From: Escherichia phage SD2
Length of the DNA: 64,000 bases
Sequence record: PQ821640
Direction: 5' to 3' (one strand)
This document shows, piece after piece, positions 15,080-63,802 of this stretch. Position numbers and translations under genes: made by a program. The notes under the pieces were generated by a model. That model did not search any database, had not been told where the DNA came from, and saw nothing but the letters and a program-made list of their open reading frames with translations. The number at the start of each line of letters is the position of its first letter. The stretch's first letter is position 1.

Positions 15080-15108
15080 TTGACACCTGAAATCAGTAAG
15101 CTATAATG
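15080..15108 (+). promoter_or_regulatory. sigma70 consensus promoter (TTGACA-17-TATAAT)
   Basis: Perfect -35 and -10 hexamers. Confidence 0.65.
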
Positions 15109-15785: not shown

Positions 15786-15844
15786 TTGACAAAGTATTTT
15801 ATTACTATATAATGGTTTACATCGAGAGCGGGAATAGTTCCCGC
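15786..15844 (+). promoter_or_regulatory. promoter (TTGACA-16-TATAAT) plus hairpin GCGGGAA-TAG-TTCCCGC
   Basis: Read directly. Confidence 0.65.
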
Positions 15845-34015: not shown

Positions 34016-34339
34016 ATGCAAAAAATAAATACTGGTTCTCGTCCTAAACAGAAGCAAACAAAAGCAAGGGTATCTTATGTTGATAACTCTTGTTATAATT
34101 TCAAAAATGTTAAAGAAGTTATCATTGATGAAAAAGAAGGTTTGATTCACATTTCATCTGAACGTTTGAAAGGTAGTGTTACTCTTCGTGAGAATGTATC
34201 TATACCTATGAAAGTTGTGGTTACACTCTGTGTTGATAAGCCAGATGTTGTTAACTACTATGTGTTCCGTGATAGTTGTATTTCATCACATAATAAGATT
34301 TTTAAATCTTCGCACGTTAAAACAAAACACATTGTATAA
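34016..34339 (+). CDS. hypothetical protein
   Basis: 107 aa; AAGGAAA SD. Confidence 0.7.
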   Translation: MQKINTGSRPKQKQTKARVSYVDNSCYNFKNVKEVIIDEKEGLIHISSERLKGSVTLRENVSIPMKVVVTLCVDKPDVVNYYVFRDSCISSHNKIFKSSHVKTKHIV

Positions 34340-34344
34340 CACAT

Positions 34345-34370
34345 AAACCCGCTTCGGCGGGTTTTCTTGT
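34345..34370 (+). terminator. rho-independent terminator (same module as 10361)
   Basis: CCCGCTTCGGCGGG then TTTTCTT. Confidence 0.75.
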
Positions 34371-34424
34371 ATATACGCTCTTTATCTGTTATAAACACTT
34401 TTACCATAAACAATAGGAGGTATT

Positions 34425-34646
34425 ATGTCTGTAGTTGTAGAAGGTAGTATTGGTTTCTTAGTAGATAACCCTCACCCTTTCGTGGTTAAGGTTCATATTC
34501 AAGAAAAGGTAAGCAACAATACGTGGCTGTGCTTGTTAGATAGTAAGATACACTCTTATACAGAGGTTTATCTTCACACTTGGCAAATTGGTACAATAAC
34601 AGCAGAGGATGAATTGATAATTGAACTATATGAACGAGATCTATAG
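34425..34646 (+). CDS. hypothetical protein
   Basis: 73 aa; AGGAGG SD. Confidence 0.65.
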   Translation: MSVVVEGSIGFLVDNPHPFVVKVHIQEKVSNNTWLCLLDSKIHSYTEVYLHTWQIGTITAEDELIIELYERDL

Positions 34647-34727
34647 ATGACTTTATTAGAGAGTATAGTAGTGTTAATCATCTTTATCATTGTTGTCATA
34701 GGATATTTTACAGAAGACTAAAATAAA

Positions 34728-34759
34728 GCCCCTAGAATCGCTTCTAGGGGCTTTTGTTT
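34728..34759. terminator. bidirectional terminator at the convergence of plus and minus blocks
   Basis: GCCCCTAG-AATCGCT-TCTAGGGGC flanked by A-run upstream and T-run downstream. Confidence 0.7.
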
Positions 34760-34821
34760 GTATTAGGTAGGGAAACGTATTACTAAAATAAAAAGTGCGT
34801 TAGAATGCGTTACAGGAGGTT

Positions 34822-35079
34822 TTAGGAATGCATAAAATCTTCTTCAGGGCAGGTTGAGAGATAAGAGATGCACGTTGGGACAACAACAACATTGTCTTTA
34901 AGGTTTTCAACCAAGCCTTTTGTAATCCCAGCCACTGCCCCGTTAATATCTGCTTGACGGATACCAAAGCCTTGTTGTGCGGATAGATAACAAAATCCCT
35001 CACCTTTCTGTTGATTGTTATTGAAGTAATAAACGTAGTGCATCATAAAATGGTCTTTAACGATTTGTTCTGTGGTCAT
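34822..35079 (-). CDS. hypothetical protein
   Basis: 85 aa; AGGAGA SD. Confidence 0.55.
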   Translation of the reverse strand: MTTEQIVKDHFMMHYVYYFNNNQQKGEGFCYLSAQQGFGIRQADINGAVAGITKGLVENLKDNVVVVPTCISYLSTCPEEDFMHS

Positions 35080-35090
35080 AATATTCTCCT

Positions 35091-35114
35091 ATAAGAAAAG
35101 GGGCTTTCGCCCCC
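35091..35114 (-). terminator. rho-independent terminator
   Basis: GGGGC-TTTC-GCCCC with T-run on the minus strand. Confidence 0.6.
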
Positions 35115-35123
35115 TTGGTTAAG

Positions 35124-35936
35124 TTATTTAGTCAAATGATCTTCTATCATTTTTATGAAAGCAGGATTGCTAAAAGCATCTGCGGCCTTTTCTCGATAAA
35201 CAAAGACTCCTCTATCTTCGTAAAGAAGAGTTTCTTCGTAATTAATTCCTGGGTTAACAACAATCATTTTTGTACCCATATTAAGTGCAGGGAATAATTC
35301 CCAATTAAAATTGATAACTTGGTTTGAACATCCTACTACTACAACCAAATCTTGCATGGTCAAAGTATCAAACAAGTGAGCCATATCTGCATACAAAGGT
35401 GCAGCCTCACCAAAAAATACAACATTAGGCTTCACCCAGTTGTAATCATCTATGTTTATACTGTTGTAACCAATATCTACCAGTGTTTTGTAATCCCCAG
35501 GATGCATACGGTAAACTACTTCAGGAAGATATCCGTGCACGTGGATAACAGAATCCCTGTCTACACCTGCTCGCTCTAGTAGATCATCAACGTTTGTTGT
35601 CAAGTTTACTACTTGGTTAGGATATTCCTTAAACCACTTTGCTATTTGAATATGTGCAGCATTAGGTTGTACATCTTTAAGCTCAACACGTCTTTTGTTA
35701 TAAAATTCGTGTGTTTTGGCATACAAATCCATACCGTTTTCGTCTACACCACCAACCACTGGAAGATCTGGTGATGTTCTCACACGATAACCTGCTTGGA
35801 AAGCTCCAATATCGCAGATCTCTTCTAAATCCCATTCTTCCCATAAGGCACGACCACTATCTGTGTCTGTTCGGAATGTTCGAATCCCACTGTCTGCACT
35901 TAAACCAGCTCCACTAACAAAAATTACTCTTCGCAT
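35124..35936 (-). CDS. Sir2-family (sirtuin-like) NAD-binding protein, no Cys4 zinc module seen
   Basis: GAGLSADSGIRTFR, TTNVDDLLERAG, HVHG, PNVVFFGE, VVVGCS match sirtuin core motifs as I recall them. Confidence 0.75.
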   Translation of the reverse strand: MRRVIFVSGAGLSADSGIRTFRTDTDSGRALWEEWDLEEICDIGAFQAGYRVRTSPDLPVVGGVDENGMDLYAKTHEFYNKRRVELKDVQPNAAHIQIAKWFKEYPNQVVNLTTNVDDLLERAGVDRDSVIHVHGYLPEVVYRMHPGDYKTLVDIGYNSINIDDYNWVKPNVVFFGEAAPLYADMAHLFDTLTMQDLVVVVGCSNQVINFNWELFPALNMGTKMIVVNPGINYEETLLYEDRGVFVYREKAADAFSNPAFIKMIEDHLTK

Positions 35937-36493
35937 TCAATATCCTCTTCGTAATCATCATACCAAGAAGATGCGTCGTAACGCTCTTCCTCTTCAAAAT
36001 CCCAATTAATTTCTACTCCAAAATCTAAAAACAATTTAACAATGTTTTCTGTAGAATAGTATTTATCATAAGCGTTAGCTAGTTCCCAATACTTATCACT
36101 CAATTTTTTATAATTAGGATCATTATAATCATGAGCTACTTTATCACCATAATCATACATCTCTTGTTCAGCTTTAAGCATAGCTTCTGGTGTAAGAAGA
36201 TTAGGGAACGGACGATTTCTTTCTTTTAACTTAGAAGCAATCCAGTTTGCAACATTCGCCACTTCACCATCTCGATTATCACCTAAACAACTTGCATAAT
36301 CTCCATCTTCGTAAGTGCCTAAATCCCCACTGACTTCATGTACAATAGATGAATACGATCCACACGTTTCACAATCTGAAAAAGTGTCTACTGTTGTAAT
36401 ATCAATAGATAAAACTGGTAAAGCCATAGCTTCTTTCACACAAGCCTCCTCATATAATAACATATCATCAAAACCCATATATCCTCCAGACAA
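35924..36493 (-). CDS. hypothetical acidic protein
   Basis: 189 aa. Confidence 0.7.
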   Translation of the reverse strand: MSGGYMGFDDMLLYEEACVKEAMALPVLSIDITTVDTFSDCETCGSYSSIVHEVSGDLGTYEDGDYASCLGDNRDGEVANVANWIASKLKERNRPFPNLLTPEAMLKAEQEMYDYGDKVAHDYNDPNYKKLSDKYWELANAYDKYYSTENIVKLFLDFGVEINWDFEEEERYDASSWYDDYEEDIECEE

Positions 36494-36520
36494 ATAAAGC
36501 CCCTGGTTGGGGGCTTTGGT
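36493..36520 (-). terminator. rho-independent terminator
   Basis: AGCCCCCAACCAGGGGCT hairpin with T-run on the minus strand. Confidence 0.6.
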
Positions 36521-36533
36521 TAAGTTTTACGGA

Positions 36534-37145
36534 TTATACCAGACTTTTAAGGTAGTTGTCAAGTGCTTCTTGATCACCTTGACAAACATAGCAACGGAAG
36601 TCTTGAGCAGAAGGTTCTTTGTCCTCTTCCCAATCCCAATAGACAGTACCTTTGTAGCGTGAACCTGGGAACTCGAAGTACGCTACATGGGTAATATGGT
36701 GTGGGCCACCCCAAAACTCTGTAAAAGTAAATTGAGGATACGCTGCTTTAACTGTATTTTCAAACCAAGTTTTACGATCTAATGCTTCGTTTATAAAATA
36801 AGCATGGCGTTCCATTTCATCCCAATCTTTCCAAACGCATTTTTCATCCAAAGAAAAAACAAAATTCTCACTGTTAAAATCGTCTGTATCTGATTCCAAA
36901 ATATCATAATCATGTGCGCTAGGTATCCACCATCCAGCTTCTAATAGTGCTTTCGCAGGTACAAAACCTTTTTCAGCGTATTGATCAAATTCTTTTACTC
37001 TACGTACAGTGCAGTATTCATCTTCACCACCAATGTCCAGTATACAAGCGCCTTTGCGTCTTGCTGCAAGACCATGTGTATCAAAAACTACAACACTACC
37101 TTCACCATCTTCACGATCTACTTGATATGCAACTTTTTGAGTCAT
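36534..37145 (-). CDS. hypothetical protein
   Basis: 203 aa. Confidence 0.7.
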   Translation of the reverse strand: MTQKVAYQVDREDGEGSVVVFDTHGLAARRKGACILDIGGEDEYCTVRRVKEFDQYAEKGFVPAKALLEAGWWIPSAHDYDILESDTDDFNSENFVFSLDEKCVWKDWDEMERHAYFINEALDRKTWFENTVKAAYPQFTFTEFWGGPHHITHVAYFEFPGSRYKGTVYWDWEEDKEPSAQDFRCYVCQGDQEALDNYLKSLV

Positions 37146-37268
37146 ATTACCCCCAATGTATATGGGAAATTAACCAAAAGATAAATTCCCAAAAACACCA
37201 ACCAAGAAAAGTTAATGGAATTATAAAAGCTATCAAAGCAGTCTTCCAGCCTTTCCACAATGTTTCCA

Positions 37269-38258
37269 TCATTCCTCCATACACTTAAGAATATGTGCAA
37301 TGACAGGTATAGTCCAACCATTACCTAACATCTTATATGCTTGTGTGTTACTACTTACTTTAAAGTAATCATCTGGAACACCTTGTAAGCGGCAACACTC
37401 TTTAACCGTTAACTTTCTATAATGCACACCTTCACTCAATTTTTCAAAGGCATCCAGATATCTTCCAGGTGGAATGTAAGCTAATAGTACGTCTTTCGGC
37501 ACAGTCGTGAGGCAACGAGTTTTTTCACTGTCCTGAACTTCCAAGCAATGTACCAAACGATCAGTTTTAGATGTACTACGTTTGCCATTTTCATTAATTC
37601 TACGCCCATATATTGCCGCTGGATAAAAAACCAGTTGTCTGCGACTCTTTTCAAAATACTGTTCTATATTACCACCTTTGGCATAATTTGCATCTATGCA
37701 ATACGCCTTGTCCCTGTCTACAATACTATCATCTTCAATGATATCTTGCAACACTTCATTGGTAATATCCCAAGGCTTTATTTCCCAATTGCACCAGTAT
37801 AAACGTTGTCTATTCTGTGCCGTGAAATCTGCGGAGTTAATGAACACAGGATCAACACCTAAGTAACTTGTGATCACGTTTTCCCACTCCACCTTCATCT
37901 TAACGTTTTCAAGCATGAACTTAACATTAGGGTTAAACTTTTTAATATGTTCAAGGATTTCAACATATTCAAAGAACAGTTTAGATCGCGGATCTTGAAA
38001 GTTCAAACCCTTACCAGAAGAAGAGAAGCCTTGGCACGGACTACCACCTAGCAAAAGATCAATTTCTCCCCACGGGATATCCCATTCTCTCCATTTTGTA
38101 ACATCACCTAATTGAACAATATCTGGAAAATTGGCTTGGCTTTCAGCTATGGCAAATTTGTCCAACTCTGAAGCATAATACTTATCTACTTCAATACCTG
38201 CACTTTTTAGTGCAAGCATTCCTCCTGACATACCATCAAAAAGACTTAAAACTTTCAT
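37269..38258 (-). CDS. DNA (cytosine-5)-methyltransferase
   Basis: Motif I FDGMSGG, motif IV GGSPCQGFS, motif VI ENV. Confidence 0.9.
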   Translation of the reverse strand: MKVLSLFDGMSGGMLALKSAGIEVDKYYASELDKFAIAESQANFPDIVQLGDVTKWREWDIPWGEIDLLLGGSPCQGFSSSGKGLNFQDPRSKLFFEYVEILEHIKKFNPNVKFMLENVKMKVEWENVITSYLGVDPVFINSADFTAQNRQRLYWCNWEIKPWDITNEVLQDIIEDDSIVDRDKAYCIDANYAKGGNIEQYFEKSRRQLVFYPAAIYGRRINENGKRSTSKTDRLVHCLEVQDSEKTRCLTTVPKDVLLAYIPPGRYLDAFEKLSEGVHYRKLTVKECCRLQGVPDDYFKVSSNTQAYKMLGNGWTIPVIAHILKCMEE

Positions 38259-38671
38259 TATTGCTTCTTCTCCTTAACACTAGCTGGTAATTCTGCCTTA
38301 AGGCAGAAGTTTAAACGGTAAGCCTCATTTTCATTTAAAAGTACAGATTCACACGATAACCAGAACAAGAGATCCTCAATACTAGGACTGTGAAGCCAAC
38401 AGTGCAGAAGAGAATGTTGTTCTATATCAATGTAATTTAGCAACAAGCCTTGTAAGGCGTAACTAGTTCCTGTCGTTTTTGCTTTTTCAAGGATGATATT
38501 GTGTTTACTAACAACCTTCTTTCTAAGACCAAACCATTTATTAACAACAACAGTCTCTTCTTGTAGTTGTTTTCTTATTTTCTCACATTCTTTAACTACA
38601 ATCTGCATCTTATCCACTGCTGATTGAAGTTGTTCTTTTGTTGGGTTTACAAAATAGTCACTATAATACAT
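38258..38671 (-). CDS. hypothetical protein
   Basis: 137 aa; sigma70-like promoter immediately upstream on the minus strand. Confidence 0.65.
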   Translation of the reverse strand: MYYSDYFVNPTKEQLQSAVDKMQIVVKECEKIRKQLQEETVVVNKWFGLRKKVVSKHNIILEKAKTTGTSYALQGLLLNYIDIEQHSLLHCWLHSPSIEDLLFWLSCESVLLNENEAYRLNFCLKAELPASVKEKKQ

Positions 38672-38726
38672 ACTAATCTCCTCTTCTGTTTTTGTGTAGT
38701 TTATTCGAAAAAACTGGTGTTGTCAA

Positions 38727-38747
38727 CAAAAAACCCGCCGAAGCGGG
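38727..38747 (-). terminator. rho-independent terminator (reverse complement of the 10361/34345 module)
   Basis: Minus strand reads CCCGCTTCGGCGGG then TTTTTTG. Confidence 0.75.
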
Positions 38748-38753
38748 TTTATA

Positions 38754-39011
38754 TTATTCTACAGGAATTTCTTCACCAAGAGAAACTTCCAAACGGAATG
38801 CTTTACTTTCAATACATTCACTACCTTTTAAGAAATCGAATTGCACTATAGACTGACTTAATAGAATAGATAGAATCACATCGCAATCTTCACTAGGAGC
38901 CAGATGTTTGTATTCTTCCTTCAAGGTAACATCATAAAAACATAAATCCCCTACTCCTAGTTCATCCCATCCTTCCCACGCATCTACAAAGTTAAACTCT
39001 AAACCTTTCAT
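38754..39011 (-). CDS. hypothetical protein
   Basis: 85 aa. Confidence 0.6.
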   Translation of the reverse strand: MKGLEFNFVDAWEGWDELGVGDLCFYDVTLKEEYKHLAPSEDCDVILSILLSQSIVQFDFLKGSECIESKAFRLEVSLGEEIPVE

Positions 39012-40101: not shown

Positions 40102-40422
40102 TTAACAAGTAATATTGGGAATAATACTGGGAGTAACAATTGGAGTAATAGGGTACGTAAACCAAGGGCTTCCAATTTCCCAAGGACTATAAGGTGTACG
40201 AGGATCAAATGGAGGCGTTACTTGAGGCTTTTTCCAAATCTCCGCTAGTTGTTTCTTCCATTTATCCCTTGCTGTATCGTTATCTTCATCCAACTGTTCG
40301 TCATTATCTTTTATTTCTGATTTTGGAAATAAAAGCTCTTTGACTAACTCAACGTCTTCCGTTTCAATAGTAGTTTCTTTCGTAATATTCCCTACCGTCT
40401 CTTTAATTGTGACTTTATACAT
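40102..40422 (-). CDS. hypothetical protein
   Basis: 106 aa. Confidence 0.6.
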   Translation of the reverse strand: MYKVTIKETVGNITKETTIETEDVELVKELLFPKSEIKDNDEQLDEDNDTARDKWKKQLAEIWKKPQVTPPFDPRTPYSPWEIGSPWFTYPITPIVTPSIIPNITC

Positions 40423-41168
40423 TAGTCCTCCTCTAAAGTAGAATAAAATTGTAACGTATTTGAATCATCAAAATATGCAAAGGTTAAATTACCATTGAAC
40501 ACAGATCCAGTATCCATATATACCCTATTACTGCTAATTACAGGTTTAGGAACATAAGAATGCCCGTGAAATACATAATCTACTCCTGAAACTCTAGGAA
40601 GAAGAATCCCTTCAAGGGCGCAATCTATCATATCACGATCCCACATTAAAGATTCTGTGAATCGAGATACTTGTTCTTTATTCATATTCGAACAAAATGG
40701 CAAAACTTCCGTCACTGGTAGATGTTCCAAAACTGAAGGATATCCTCCGTGAATAAAGCCTAGTTTCATATTACGATAGTTGACAACAAGTACAACAGGT
40801 AAATCTTCTAGCATCAAAGCAAGAGCAGTTGCACCTTCTTCTCCACACTCATTTAGAACTGTATGGCCTCCGTTCTGAAACCAACATTCGTAATATCGCC
40901 TATCACCTTCTAGCAACCCTTTAATCATCATATCTTCGTGATTTCCACGAATAGCATAGCGATTTAGCTTTCTGGTGAATTCAACGGTACAACGAAAATT
41001 CTGCTTGCCGCGATCTGTAAGATCTCCTAAAGATACAACAACATCTTGATCTCGAATACCTAAAGTATTAACACCTTTCTGGTATAAATCAAAGCAACCA
41101 TGTAAATCACCAATAATAAACAGGTCTTGATCATCTTTTACACTAATTTCTTGATATACTAGCATCAA
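40422..41168 (-). CDS. Ser/Thr protein phosphatase (calcineurin-like metallophosphoesterase)
   Basis: GDLHGC, GDLTDRG, GNHE motifs. Confidence 0.8.
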   Translation of the reverse strand: MMLVYQEISVKDDQDLFIIGDLHGCFDLYQKGVNTLGIRDQDVVVSLGDLTDRGKQNFRCTVEFTRKLNRYAIRGNHEDMMIKGLLEGDRRYYECWFQNGGHTVLNECGEEGATALALMLEDLPVVLVVNYRNMKLGFIHGGYPSVLEHLPVTEVLPFCSNMNKEQVSRFTESLMWDRDMIDCALEGILLPRVSGVDYVFHGHSYVPKPVISSNRVYMDTGSVFNGNLTFAYFDDSNTLQFYSTLEED

Positions 41169-63079: not shown

Positions 63080-63802
63080 TTAAGCAATGATTGCTGCGAT
63101 ATTAGGTTTAACAAAGGTAGATGGCTTCATAATTTTACCTTTGTCATCAAAGAATACGTATACCTTTTGAACTTCGTTATATACAGCATGTACTCCAGTA
63201 TAAGAACCTTCTGCACGATCTTTGCTTCGCATCTCGATAGCATCACACTCTTTTTCAAGAGCTTCAACAATATCCTTAGTTTCCCAAATAGCCAGGAGTT
63301 GCTTCTTGGTAGGATACTTGGACTCATTGCTATTCAACACTTCACGCATAACCTTCTTCTCGTTATAAACAGAACGCACCAAAGTATCTCGTGCCATACG
63401 TGTAAGTGTAAGAGACATTAGGGCAAATTGCAAGTCATTTTCTACCATTTTATCAAATTCAATGATAACATCGTAAATGTTTTCTGCCAGAACATCTCCT
63501 GTCGGCATTTCCAGAGCTTTATCAACACCTTCTTTACCAAAGAACATAAACGCCAGGTAGGATGCTACCACAAAAATATCTGCTGCTGCATCAAGTAATT
63601 CAACGTGATCATTTTCCTGTGCTGCTGCTTGGAACTCTTTTAGTTCTTCTCGTACAAAAGAAAGTTGAGCTTCAAACATCTCTTGAGTAAACTCTGGAGT
63701 TACGCCACCACGTGCCTTAGCATTCCAAGCAACAATTTGATCGGCAGCTTTGATAAAGAAGCTATTGTCCACTTTTACTTGTTTGAAAAAATTCTCGATC
63801 AT
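63080..63802 (-). CDS. putative MazG-like nucleotide pyrophosphohydrolase
   Basis: EELKEFQAAAQENDHVELLDAAADIFVV resembles the MazG EExxE...D motif; tentative. Confidence 0.45.
   Translation of the reverse strand: MIENFFKQVKVDNSFFIKAADQIVAWNAKARGGVTPEFTQEMFEAQLSFVREELKEFQAAAQENDHVELLDAAADIFVVASYLAFMFFGKEGVDKALEMPTGDVLAENIYDVIIEFDKMVENDLQFALMSLTLTRMARDTLVRSVYNEKKVMREVLNSNESKYPTKKQLLAIWETKDIVEALEKECDAIEMRSKDRAEGSYTGVHAVYNEVQKVYVFFDDKGKIMKPSTFVKPNIAAIIA

What the first reader, a model, noticed from the sequence alone, without database searches (positions are those of the whole stretch)
35124..35936. Sir2-like protein without a zinc ribbon in a phage accessory cluster
Core sirtuin motifs are present but I see no Cys4 zinc module. 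Sir2 domains occur in NAD-depleting bacterial defence effectors, so a phage copy could instead be an anti-defence enzyme, a NAD-dependent modifier of host proteins, or an ADP-ribosyltransferase. It is followed by acidic proteins and a cytosine methyltransferase.
Basis: partly seen in the sequence, partly recalled or inferred. Interest (0 to 1): 0.6.

Follow-up and report, generated by a model that had tools for sequence, protein, structure and literature searches.

The report
Known phage sirtuin lacking zinc cysteines
This gene is the already-annotated Sir2-like enzyme of phi92-type E. coli phages, one copy of a sirtuin family found in about a thousand phage genomes that keeps every catalytic residue but has lost its zinc-binding cysteines, and whose real substrate nobody has yet tested.

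Summary
ORF 35124-35936 (-) encodes a 270-aa Sir2-domain protein with all NAD-binding and catalytic residues and only two cysteines, neither in the zinc-module region.

It is not new. The protein is 100% identical to Phi92_gp038 ("Sir2-like"), belongs to PHROG 2162 and has homologues in 982 phage records. The missing zinc ligands were noted for Vibrio phage relatives in 2016.

The small module is still there. AlphaFold predicts a confident three-stranded ribbon at residues 135-172. More distant relatives carry CxxC...CxxC in a module of the same length.

Closest solved structures are the deacylases CobB, Sir2Af1 and SIRT5, not defence NADases. CobB's acyl-pocket positions are conserved and invariant here.

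Best reading: an NAD-dependent protein-lysine deacylase, confidence about 0.45.

Main rival, about 0.25: the published prediction that this clade removes RNA 2'-phosphates. In 41 of 52 viral loci the sirtuin sits within about 3 kb of predicted RNA-end-repair genes. In this phage lineage the repair cluster lies about 29 kb away. Those cassettes also sit beside NARP1 NAD-salvage genes, so the context is ambiguous.

I found no biochemical study. Interest is low to moderate.

The parts
35124..35936 (-). Sirtuin gene (270 aa), identical to Phi92_gp038 and a member of PHROG 2162
35871..35912 (-). Codons 9-22: NAD-binding motif GAGLSADSGIRTFR (G9 A10 G11 S13 S16 G17 F21 R22 invariant)
   Evidence: aligned to CobB GAGISAESGIRTFR
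35691..35702 (-). Codons 79-82: Y-N-K-R, equivalent to CobB Y92/R95, the class III YxxR acyl-pocket motif
   Evidence: the 6rxs Y92A chain anchors the numbering
35586..35594 (-). Codons 115-117: N-V-D of TTNVD (canonical TQNID); N115 and D117 invariant
35535..35537 (-). Codon 134: catalytic histidine (HVHG), aligned with the HG histidine of CobB and Sir2Af2
35421..35534 (-). Codons 135-172: former zinc-ribbon module, three predicted beta-strands and no cysteine
36533..36562 (-). Perfect sigma-70 consensus promoter (TTGACA-18-TATAAT with TG) upstream of gp039 and the sirtuin
   Evidence: 3 in the window against 0.12 expected
36496..36517 (-). GC-rich hairpin between that promoter and the gp039 start
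35924..36478 (-). gp039, a 184-aa hyper-acidic protein restricted to this lineage; its stop overlaps the sirtuin start by 13 nt
35098..35116 (-). Hairpin with a T-rich tail a few bases after the sirtuin stop codon
34822..35079 (-). gp037, an 85-aa protein of unknown function and the last gene of the unit
34725..34754 (.). 13-bp-stem bidirectional terminator at the convergent junction ending the leftward gene array
36534..37145 (-). gp041, an acidic 203-aa protein (PHROG 8514), kept upstream of the sirtuin throughout Stephanstirmvirinae
37269..38258 (-). Dcm-like C5 cytosine DNA methyltransferase (context only)
40422..41168 (-). Calcineurin-like phosphatase (gp049 homologue), the only phosphoesterase within 10 kb of the sirtuin in this lineage
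63080..63802 (-). MazG-like protein, homologue of the gene just downstream of the sirtuin in rV5-like phages; it marks the edge of the displaced RNA-ligase/DNA-ligase cluster

Best explanation
The gene encodes a stand-alone, catalytically intact sirtuin of a phage-specific clade (phi92 gp038, T5.102, PHROG 2162). The clade descends from short CobB/SIRT5-like Cys4 sirtuins and has lost the four zinc ligands but kept the small beta-ribbon module. It most likely works as a CobB-type NAD+-dependent protein-lysine deacylase (deacetylase/desuccinylase). In that mechanism an acylated lysine enters the conserved pocket formed by C41, Y79, R82, V116, V172 and F175. Its carbonyl oxygen attacks C1' of NAD+, which is held by the GAGxS loop, F21/R22 and N115/D117. 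Nicotinamide leaves, H134 activates the ribose 2'-OH, and O-acyl-ADP-ribose and the free lysine are released. The gene has its own consensus sigma-70 promoter, which suggests host-polymerase (early) expression. It shares that unit with, and appears translationally coupled to, the acidic protein gp039. Shown here: fold, family, motif conservation, absence of Cys ligands, retention of the module, and transcription-unit anatomy. Inferred: the chemistry, by homology, and the substrate class. The actual targets, host or phage proteins, are unknown.
For: Pfam SIR2 E=2.8e-22. The best PDB sequence hit is E. coli CobB 1s5p at E=6e-18. The AF2 model has pLDDT 89.5 and pTM 0.87. The top 50 Foldseek PDB hits are all classical deacylase sirtuins, led by CobB (E=3e-17, target-normalised TM 0.84), then Sir2Af1/Af2, SIRT5, Sir2Tm and SIRT2. 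All NAD-binding and catalytic residues are invariant in 30 clade members and kept in nearly all of 141 representatives. The CobB acyl-pocket positions mutated in PDB entries 6rxm and 6rxs (A76, Y92, I131, V187), plus R95, align to C41, Y79, V116, V172 and R82, all invariant in the clade. The best NCBIfam hits are all 'NAD-dependent protein deacylase' models. No partner gene is conserved across phage families, so the enzyme acts alone. The protein is strongly acidic (pI 4.8, net -15), unlike the near-neutral RNA and DNA enzymes of the same phages.
Against: No biochemical data on any member were found. NCBIfam scores are far below the curated cut-offs (105 bits against 243), so this is not a CobB equivalog. 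Clade-specific invariant residues cluster in the loop after GxS (C203, N205, N209-W212, F215, P216). From my knowledge of sirtuin structures, this corresponds to the VxP peptide-binding loop of canonical sirtuins. Others form a five-residue insertion in the cofactor-binding loop. Both suggest altered substrate recognition. In 41 of 52 viral loci the gene lies within about 3 kb of predicted RNA-end-processing genes, with no link to acetylation genes.
Confidence: 0.45

Rival explanations
1. RNA-repair enzyme, as proposed by Iyer et al. 2022. The sirtuin acts like KptA/Tpt1. An RNA 2'-phosphate attacks NAD+, nicotinamide leaves, and the His-activated ribose 2''-OH resolves the intermediate into ADP-ribose 1'',2''-cyclic phosphate and 2'-OH RNA. 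This would clean ends or junctions produced when cleaved tRNA or mRNA is healed.
For: PMC9503650 section 3.7.3. I reproduced the contexts. In rV5-like AlexBoehm and in Mydo the order is metallophosphoesterase, Rnl1, cREC, kinase, sirtuin, then DNA ligase or MazG. In 28 T5-like loci, including a 121,750-bp contig that I take from its length to be T5 itself, a HAD_SAK_2 gene lies 2-475 bp downstream. In 13 rV5/Mydo-like loci the sirtuin is embedded in the Rnl1/cREC/PNK cluster. The two-step sirtuin chemistry is formally analogous to that of Tpt1 (established mechanism). The remodelled substrate loop is compatible with a new substrate.
Against: In this window's lineage the sirtuin is about 29 kb from the Rnl1/PNK/phosphoesterase cluster. 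T5-like phages, which hold most copies, do not appear among the Rnl1 hits shown, and only 14 Salmonella-phage records carry Rnl1 against 289 with the sirtuin. The hydrophobic acyl-lysine pocket positions are invariant. The protein carries a net charge of -15. Sirtuin-less versions of the same cassette in the three lineages checked carry no KptA in its place. The 'RNA repair' labels of HAD_SAK_2 and cREC are themselves computational predictions. The 41 supporting loci represent only two lineages.
Confidence: 0.25
2. An enzyme of the NAD+/ADP-ribose metabolite economy or counter-defence. The sirtuin would act on a small ADPR-derived molecule, or run nicotinamide exchange, together with neighbouring phosphoesterases, feeding or complementing phage NAD+ reconstitution.
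For: The Rnl1/kinase/phosphoesterase cassette that hosts the sirtuin in rV5/Mydo phages lies next to a Prs-like plus NAMPT-like pair, the NARP1 architecture (10.1101/2024.02.11.579819). This holds in Mydo, EmilieFrey, Brizo, PAK_P2 and REC1. A Macro-domain gene accompanies the pair in Brizo and PAK_P2, matching NARP1-AP (10.64898/2026.01.28.702374). NAMPT-like and Prs-like genes lie 1.6-6.6 kb from the sirtuin in 9 of 52 loci. The NARP1-AP paper shows that an enzyme type first linked to tRNA splicing (Poa1p-like) serves NAD+ reconstitution in phages.
Against: No sirtuin is known to act on such metabolites. The papers on NARP1, NARP1-AP and NARP3 that I checked do not mention a phage-encoded sirtuin as part of these pathways. 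In T5-like and phi92-like phages the sirtuin is not near NAD-salvage genes. The acyl-lysine pocket is conserved.
Confidence: 0.12
3. A protein mono-ADP-ribosyltransferase that modifies host proteins to take over the cell, like SirTM or the weak ART activity of some sirtuins.
For: The Sir2 fold and intact NAD+ site would allow it. Phages do use ADP-ribosylation for host takeover, as with T4 Alt and Mod (discussed in PMC9503650).
Against: No macrodomain gene is adjacent in this window. The catalytic His and the class III acyl pocket are retained. The closest structures are deacylases.
Confidence: 0.08
4. An NADase of the defence type, used for superinfection exclusion or host shut-off.
Against: No PADLOC defence family matches beyond a partial hit at E=0.0066. 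No sensor domain or partner is present. The classical small domain is present, and none of the top 50 structural hits is ThsA, DSR2, SIR2-HerA or SPARSA. The carriers are virulent phages that also carry NAD-rebuilding genes.
Confidence: 0.04

Closest known systems
E. coli CobB (PDB 1s5p, 6rxj), class III sirtuin protein deacylase
   Same: Best sequence and structure match: E=6e-18, Foldseek E=3e-17, target-normalised TM 0.84, 28% identity. It shares GAGxSxxSGIRTFR, FYNxRR (Y92/R95 = Y79/R82), xNxD, HG, VVxFGE and a small module of similar length.
   Different: CobB binds a structural zinc through cysteines; the phage protein has none there. The phage protein carries a variable insertion of about 25 aa at residues 47-72, a five-residue insertion in the cofactor loop and a remodelled loop after GxS. 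It scores far below the NCBIfam CobB cut-offs.
SIRT5 (desuccinylase/demalonylase)
   Same: Class III fold. The YxxR motif reads FYNKRR here; from memory SIRT5 reads FYHYRR. The pocket position that is alanine in CobB (A76), and from memory in SIRT5 (A86), holds a small residue here (C41).
   Different: About 20% identity; SIRT5 has a Cys4 zinc site; C41 replaces the alanine.
Vibrio phage phiSt2, phi-Grn1 and KVP40 Sir2/CobB (Skliros et al. 2016, PMC5107563)
   Same: Same phage sirtuin family (39% identity to phi-Grn1). The absence of zinc ligands in the finger module was already described there, and T5 was listed as a family member.
   Different: A different phage group (Straboviridae jumbo phages) with a different neighbourhood, next to a topoisomerase subunit. 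That study reported only modelling and transcript data.
T5.102 and the rV5/Mydo sirtuins, the 'distinct viral sirtuin clade' of Iyer et al. 2022
   Same: 47-61% identical, the same invariant residues and the same Cys-less module.
   Different: Those genes sit next to HAD_SAK_2 (T5-like) or inside the Rnl1/cREC/PNK/DNA-ligase cluster (rV5/Mydo). The phi92-type copy lies about 29 kb from that cluster, beside lineage-specific acidic proteins.
KptA/Tpt1 RNA 2'-phosphotransferase
   Same: A possible functional analogy only: NAD+-dependent transfer to an oxyanion followed by attack of the ribose 2''-OH (PMC9503650).
   Different: An unrelated fold (ART superfamily). No evidence here that the phage sirtuin binds RNA.
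Defence-associated SIR2 NADases (ThsA, DSR1/2, SIR2-HerA, SPARSA)
   Same: Same superfamily, with a Rossmann NAD+ site and catalytic Asn and His.
   Different: Those proteins are fused or paired with sensor modules. The phage protein is stand-alone, matches no PADLOC model and is structurally closest to deacylases.

Membership tests
Sir2/sirtuin superfamily (PF02146) | Significant match to the family profile above the curated cut-off | tested here: met
   80 bits against a cut-off of 24, E=2.8e-22
Sir2/sirtuin superfamily (PF02146) | NAD-binding GAGxS loop, F/R of the cofactor loop, catalytic Asn/Asp and His | tested here: met
   G9 A10 G11 S13 F21 R22 N115 D117 H134 are invariant in 30 clade members and shared with Cys4 relatives
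Sir2/sirtuin superfamily (PF02146) | Two-domain fold: Rossmann domain plus small domain | tested here: met
   AF2 pLDDT 89.5; Foldseek target-normalised TM 0.84 to CobB
Classical deacylase sirtuins | Structural Cys4 zinc site in the small domain | tested here: not met
   No Cys in residues 135-172 of the query or of any of its closest relatives (E<1e-30); 83 of 141 representatives have at least 4 Cys there
Class III sirtuins (CobB/SIRT5 type) | YxxR acyl-pocket motif | tested here: met
   Y79 and R82 are invariant and align to CobB Y92/R95
CobB equivalog (NCBIfam NF040867, NF001753) | Score above the curated cut-off | tested here: not met
   84.5 against 320 bits and 104.8 against 243 bits
Classical deacylase sirtuins | NAD-dependent deacylase activity | not testable with these tools
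   No published assay of any clade member was found
Phage sirtuin clade PHROG 2162 / Iyer et al. 2022 'viral sirtuin clade' | Full-length homology to the T5, rV5 and Mydo sirtuins | tested here: met
   PHROG 2162 E=3e-104 over residues 1-269; 47-61% identity to T5-like, Mydo and rV5-like copies
Phage sirtuin clade PHROG 2162 / Iyer et al. 2022 'viral sirtuin clade' | Neighbourhood of RNA-end-repair genes (Rnl1, cREC, PNK, HAD_SAK, 2H, Nudix) | tested here: not met
   None within 10 kb in the window or in five phi92/phAPEC8-like loci, only a calcineurin-like phosphatase at 4.5-6.6 kb. The repair cluster is about 29 kb away. The feature is met in the T5-like and rV5/Mydo-like members.
Defence-associated SIR2 NADases | Match to defence SIR2 profiles, or fusion or pairing with a sensor (SLOG, HerA, pAgo, DSR C-terminal domains) | tested here: not met
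   PADLOC gives only a partial hit at E=0.0066. The protein has a single domain, and the neighbours have no such domains.
SirTM (macrodomain-linked ADP-ribosylating sirtuins) | Adjacent macrodomain gene | tested here: not met
   No Macro hit among the neighbours scanned
KptA/Tpt1 | ART-fold 2'-phosphotransferase domain | tested here: not met
   The protein has a Sir2 Rossmann fold. Only a functional analogy is conceivable.

The most novel reading that the evidence does not exclude
This zinc-less phage clade is the first sirtuin whose physiological substrate is not a protein. The substrate would be either an RNA 2'-phosphate, making the enzyme a Tpt1 analogue in phage RNA repair, or an ADP-ribose-derived metabolite in the NAD+-centred arms race. 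The remodelled loop after GxS and the cofactor-loop insertion would be the adaptations.
Probability: 0.3. Interest if true: 0.75.

Novelty: already known. Interest (0 to 1): 0.3.

Why it matters
The family occurs in about a thousand sequenced virulent phages of Enterobacteria and Vibrio, including the model phage T5 and phages of the BASEL collection. It is always annotated 'Sir2-like deacetylase', yet I found no study in which it was assayed. A simple set of experiments could decide between three readings: a protein deacylase that resets host or phage acylation, an RNA 2'-phosphate remover, or an NAD/ADPR-metabolite enzyme. The second or third outcome would extend sirtuin chemistry beyond proteins. 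The clade is also a natural case of a sirtuin small domain that appears to fold without zinc, which is of some interest for sirtuin structure. For this particular window, however, nothing is new: the gene, its family and its missing zinc ligands are all on record.

Tried and rejected
1. A conserved partner gene. gp039, gp041 and gp037 are kept next to the sirtuin only within Stephanstirmvirinae (KKP 3954, KP13-26). None has a homologue next to the sirtuin in T5-like, rV5-like, Mydo or Vibrio phages.

2. gp039 as a tRNA-related protein, following the BASEL label 'putative aminoacyl-tRNA synthetase' on its homologue. Only three clusters exist in 5.8 billion proteins. Pfam gives only a sub-threshold PhetRS_B1 hit at E=0.036. 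The AF2 model is confident (pLDDT 82) but has no PDB fold match (best E=0.075, TM no higher than 0.25), and a profile search of PDB sequences found nothing. The label is unsupported.

3. Domain fusions of longer relatives as a clue to substrate. The partners are WG repeats, GIY-YIG, RHS repeats or nothing, which is uninformative.

4. Defence-type SIR2. PADLOC was negative.

5. Analogous displacement. Sirtuin-less Rnl1 cassettes in Brizo, PAK_P2 and REC1 contain no KptA. The extra gene there is a Macro-domain protein of the NARP1-AP type.

6. Hidden RNA-repair domains near the sirtuin in this window. Eight neighbouring ORFs gave no Pfam hit, apart from the calcineurin-like phosphatase.

7. Experimental literature. 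Seven completed searches found no assay of a phage sirtuin.

8. Charge as an argument against RNA binding. The sirtuins carry net -6 to -15, against -2 to -4 for the phage ligases and kinases. This is suggestive only.

Full report
**What is there.** ORF 35124-35936 on the minus strand encodes a 270-aa protein. It matches Pfam SIR2 (PF02146, E=2.8e-22, 80 bits against a cut-off of 24). It also matches PHROG 2162, 'Sir2 (NAD-dependent deacetylase)', over its whole length (E=3e-104).

The window comes from a phi92-like E. coli myophage (Justusliebigvirus, Stephanstirmvirinae). The 5 kb around the gene is 98.7% identical to phage ECGD1 and 97.1% identical to phi92. The protein is 100% identical to Phi92_gp038, annotated there as 'predicted NAD-dependent deacetylase (Sir2-like) fold'. 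So the gene is real and already annotated.

**The observation.** In an alignment of 30 clade members at 55-91% identity, the sirtuin hallmarks are invariant: G9-A10-G11-x-S13, S16-G17, F21-R22, N115/D117, H134-G135, F175-x-E177, G202-x-S204 and N228.

The protein has two cysteines, C41 and C203. Neither lies between H134 and the FGE motif, where sirtuins carry the CxxC...CxxC zinc site.

The module itself is not absent. AlphaFold2 (pLDDT 89.5, pTM 0.87) predicts three beta-strands at 135-143, 151-154 and 167-172, with pLDDT 94-96.

I searched 1.84 billion representative proteins and analysed 141 full-length relatives:
- 41 have no Cys in this module.
- 83 have four or more, arranged as CxxC...CxxC.
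- Module length is similar in both groups, and both share a central 'IGY' motif.
- All of the closest relatives (E<1e-30) lack cysteines there.

The simplest reading is that the clade lost its ligands but kept the ribbon. No conserved residue replaces the former cysteines.

This is not a new observation either. Skliros et al. 2016 (PMC5107563) reported the missing zinc ligands in the Sir2/CobB proteins of Vibrio phages phiSt2, phi-Grn1 and KVP40, and listed T5 as carrying a homologue.

**How widespread it is.** tblastn finds the protein in 982 of 50,697 phage records:
- phi92- and phAPEC8-like phages: 64-100% identity
- T5-like Demerecviridae: 51-61%
- Mydo-like: 56%
- rV5-like: 47-48%
- Vibrio, Erwinia and E. 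coli jumbo phages: 29-39%

**What it resembles.** The best solved relative by sequence is E. coli CobB (1s5p, E=6e-18). By structure the top 50 PDB matches are all classical deacylase sirtuins: CobB (E=3e-17, target-normalised TM 0.84, 28% identity), Sir2Af1/Af2, SIRT5, Sir2Tm and SIRT2. None is a defence NADase. PADLOC gives no defence-family match beyond a partial hit at E=0.0066. The NCBIfam hits are all 'NAD-dependent protein deacylase' models, but far below their cut-offs (104.8 against 243 bits). The protein is therefore not a CobB equivalog.

PDB chains of engineered CobB mutants served as numbering anchors. The Y92A chain 6rxs reads FANARR where wild type reads FYNARR. Using them, the CobB acyl-pocket positions map as follows:
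- A76 to C41
- Y92 to Y79
- R95 to R82
- I131 to V116
- V187 to V172

All five are invariant in the phage clade. The class III YxxR motif and the hydrophobic pocket positions are thus retained.

An evolutionary-trace comparison with the Cys4 relatives shows that the NAD and catalytic set is shared. Clade-specific invariant residues cluster in two places:
- A five-residue insertion in the flexible cofactor-binding loop (T23-D24-T25-x-S27-G28; pLDDT below 50).
- The loop after GxS (C203, N205, N209, F210, N211, W212, F215, P216). From my knowledge of sirtuin structures, this corresponds to the VxP peptide-binding loop of canonical sirtuins.

That pattern suggests conserved chemistry with modified substrate recognition.

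**Local anatomy.** The sirtuin is the second-to-last gene of a long leftward gene array.
- A perfect sigma-70 consensus promoter (TTGACA-18-TATAAT with an extended -10 TG) lies at 36562-36533. Only three such sites occur in the window, against 0.12 expected and none of 100 shuffles reaching three.
- A hairpin follows at 36517-36496.
- Next comes gp039. Its likely true start is the ATG at 36478, preceded by GGAGG. Its stop overlaps the sirtuin ATG by 13 nt.
- A second hairpin lies a few bases after the sirtuin stop (35116-35098).
- gp037 follows, then a strong bidirectional terminator at 34725-34754.

The upstream proteins are very acidic: gp039 has pI 4.05 and net charge -31, and gp041 has pI 4.58 and net charge -19. 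The Dcm-like methyltransferase is confirmed.

**Neighbourhood evidence for function.** Iyer et al. 2022 (PMC9503650) proposed that most viral sirtuins form a clade acting in RNA repair. They would remove 2'-phosphates in the manner of KptA/Tpt1. The proposal rests on gene neighbourhoods in rV5, Mydo, the T5-like phage SP15 and jumbo phages. I reproduced and extended those contexts.
- In rV5-like AlexBoehm and in Mydo, the sirtuin lies among a metallophosphoesterase, T4-type RNA ligase 1, a cREC domain protein, a small kinase, a MazG-like protein and an ATP-dependent DNA ligase.
- In T5-like TrudiGerster, a HAD_SAK_2 phosphatase lies three genes downstream.

Among 52 IMG/VR loci encoding the sirtuin:
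- 28 T5-like loci, including a 121,750-bp contig that I take from its length to be T5 itself, have HAD_SAK_2 2-475 bp downstream.
- 13 rV5/Mydo-like loci have the Rnl1/cREC/PNK/MPE cluster within about 3 kb and DNA ligase within 3 bp to 1.5 kb.
- The five phi92/phAPEC8-like loci have only a calcineurin-like phosphatase 4.5-6.6 kb away.
- Two jumbo-phage loci gave nothing at my sensitivity.

In EmilieFrey, a well-annotated phi92-like phage, the phosphoesterase, RNA ligase, PNK and DNA ligase cluster lies upstream in the same leftward array. It is about 29 kb from the sirtuin. By coordinate mapping, the ligase falls just beyond the right end of this window. The window's last complete gene, 63080-63802, is the MazG-like member of that cluster. 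So the association is strong in two lineages but broken in this one.

**Limits of the RNA-repair reading.**
- T5-like phages do not appear among the Rnl1 hits shown. Only 14 Salmonella-phage records carry Rnl1, against 289 with the sirtuin.
- The same Rnl1, kinase and phosphoesterase cassette occurs without any sirtuin in Vibrio Thalassavirus, Pseudomonas Pakpunavirus and Otagovirus. No KptA takes its place there.
- In all these lineages, and in Mydo and EmilieFrey, the cassette sits beside a Prs-like plus NAMPT-like pair. That is the architecture of the experimentally defined NARP1 pathway, Adps plus Namat (10.1101/2024.02.11.579819).
- In Brizo and PAK_P2 a Macro-domain gene accompanies the pair. 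This matches NARP1-AP, in which a Poa1p-like phosphatase once associated with tRNA splicing serves NAD+ reconstitution (10.64898/2026.01.28.702374).

'RNA-repair-like' phosphoesterase neighbours may therefore equally point to NAD/ADPR metabolite handling.

In addition, the sirtuins are markedly acidic (net -6 to -15), while the RNA and DNA enzymes of the same phages are near neutral. The narrow acyl-lysine pocket positions are conserved.

**Verdict on mechanism.** The fold, the intact NAD+ site and the nicotinamide-cleaving, His-assisted chemistry are well supported by homology. The substrate is not established. My weighting is:
- CobB-type protein-lysine deacylase: about 0.45
- Tpt1-like RNA 2'-phosphate removal: about 0.25
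- NAD/ADPR-metabolite role: about 0.12
- Protein ADP-ribosyltransferase: about 0.08
- Defence-type NADase: about 0.04

One untested way to reconcile the first two comes from the known role of CobB in reactivating acetyl-CoA synthetase, an adenylate-forming enzyme. A deacylase placed beside RNA and DNA ligases might keep their active-site lysines free of acylation. This is inference only.

**Dead ends.**
- No partner gene is conserved across phage families.
- gp039 is lineage-restricted and has four conserved cysteines. Its AF2 model is confident but matches no known fold, so the 'aminoacyl-tRNA synthetase' label on its homologue is unsupported.
- Fusion partners of distant relatives are uninformative.
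- Seven completed literature searches found no biochemical or genetic study of any phage sirtuin of this clade.

**Novelty and interest.** The gene, its family membership, its missing zinc ligands and two functional predictions are already in the public record, so I rate it 'already known'. It remains an uncharacterised enzyme family in about a thousand phages, including T5. A non-protein substrate would be a notable extension of sirtuin biology. That possibility justifies a modest interest score of 0.3, not a high one.

Noticed in passing
window 15080-15107 (+), 15786-15813 (+), 36533-36562 (-): Three perfect sigma-70 consensus promoters (TTGACA-N16-18-TATAAT) occur in the window, against 0.12 expected by chance. 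Two lie in the rightward array of small genes and one lies upstream of gp039 and the sirtuin.
   Followed up: partly
window 34345-34364 and 38731-38750; also 34725-34754, 36496-36517, 35098-35116: GC-rich hairpins recur between genes. An identical 20-nt palindromic hairpin, AAACCCGCTTCGGCGGGTTT, occurs twice 4.4 kb apart, and AAAGCCCC...GGGGCTTT-type hairpins occur three times. The scan found 9 terminator-like sites against 2.4 expected in 34300-38800.
   Followed up: no
window 35924-36478 (-): gp039 is hyper-acidic (pI 4.05, net -31) and is found in only three protein clusters among 5.8 billion. It has four conserved cysteines (C13, C36-x-x-C39, C64) and a confident AF2 model with no PDB fold match. 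It appears translationally coupled to the zinc-less sirtuin. The 'putative aminoacyl-tRNA synthetase' label on its BASEL homologue is unsupported.
   Followed up: yes
phage records MG065639, MG065645, MG065656, MG065689: Records named 'Campylobacter phage' A150, A145, C3 and A110a, with host given as C. jejuni, are 98% identical to this E. coli phi92-like DNA. rV5-like 'Campylobacter phage' records also appear. The host labels look doubtful.
   Followed up: no
L005 (Mydo), L006 (EmilieFrey), L062 (Brizo), L063 (PAK_P2), L064 (REC1): The RNA ligase 1, small kinase and metallophosphoesterase cassette sits next to a Prs-like plus NAMPT-like pair (NARP1 architecture) in at least five phage lineages. 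A Macro-domain gene accompanies the pair in Brizo and PAK_P2 (NARP1-AP type). This suggests a conserved super-cassette of RNA/DNA ligation and NAD salvage.
   Followed up: partly
L003 7090-8445 and 28 T5-like loci among L020-L057: In T5-like phages the sirtuin is followed by a HAD_SAK_2 phosphatase and DUF7415 genes. TrudiGerster has two tandem paralogues that are 34% identical to each other. The arrangement is conserved across the group.
   Followed up: partly
protein P0068: The sirtuin homologue of Pectobacterium phage DU_PP_V is named 'tail assembly protein' in NCBI and UniRef, an evident misannotation.
   Followed up: no
window 63080-63802 (-): This MazG-like (PRA-PH) protein is homologous to the gene immediately downstream of the sirtuin in rV5-like phages. 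In this lineage it stays with the DNA-ligase/RNA-ligase cluster, about 28 kb from the sirtuin. That suggests the sirtuin, not the cluster, was relocated.
   Followed up: partly
window 36534-37145 (-): gp041 (acidic, 203 aa, PHROG 8514) is the one neighbour kept directly upstream of the sirtuin throughout Stephanstirmvirinae, including KP13-26, which lacks gp039. Its function is unknown and it has no Pfam hit.
   Followed up: partly
window 1-64000: ARAGORN detects no tRNA genes in the window. In EmilieFrey, the related phage checked, the tRNA cluster lies beyond the window's right end, next to the NARP1-like genes.
   Followed up: no
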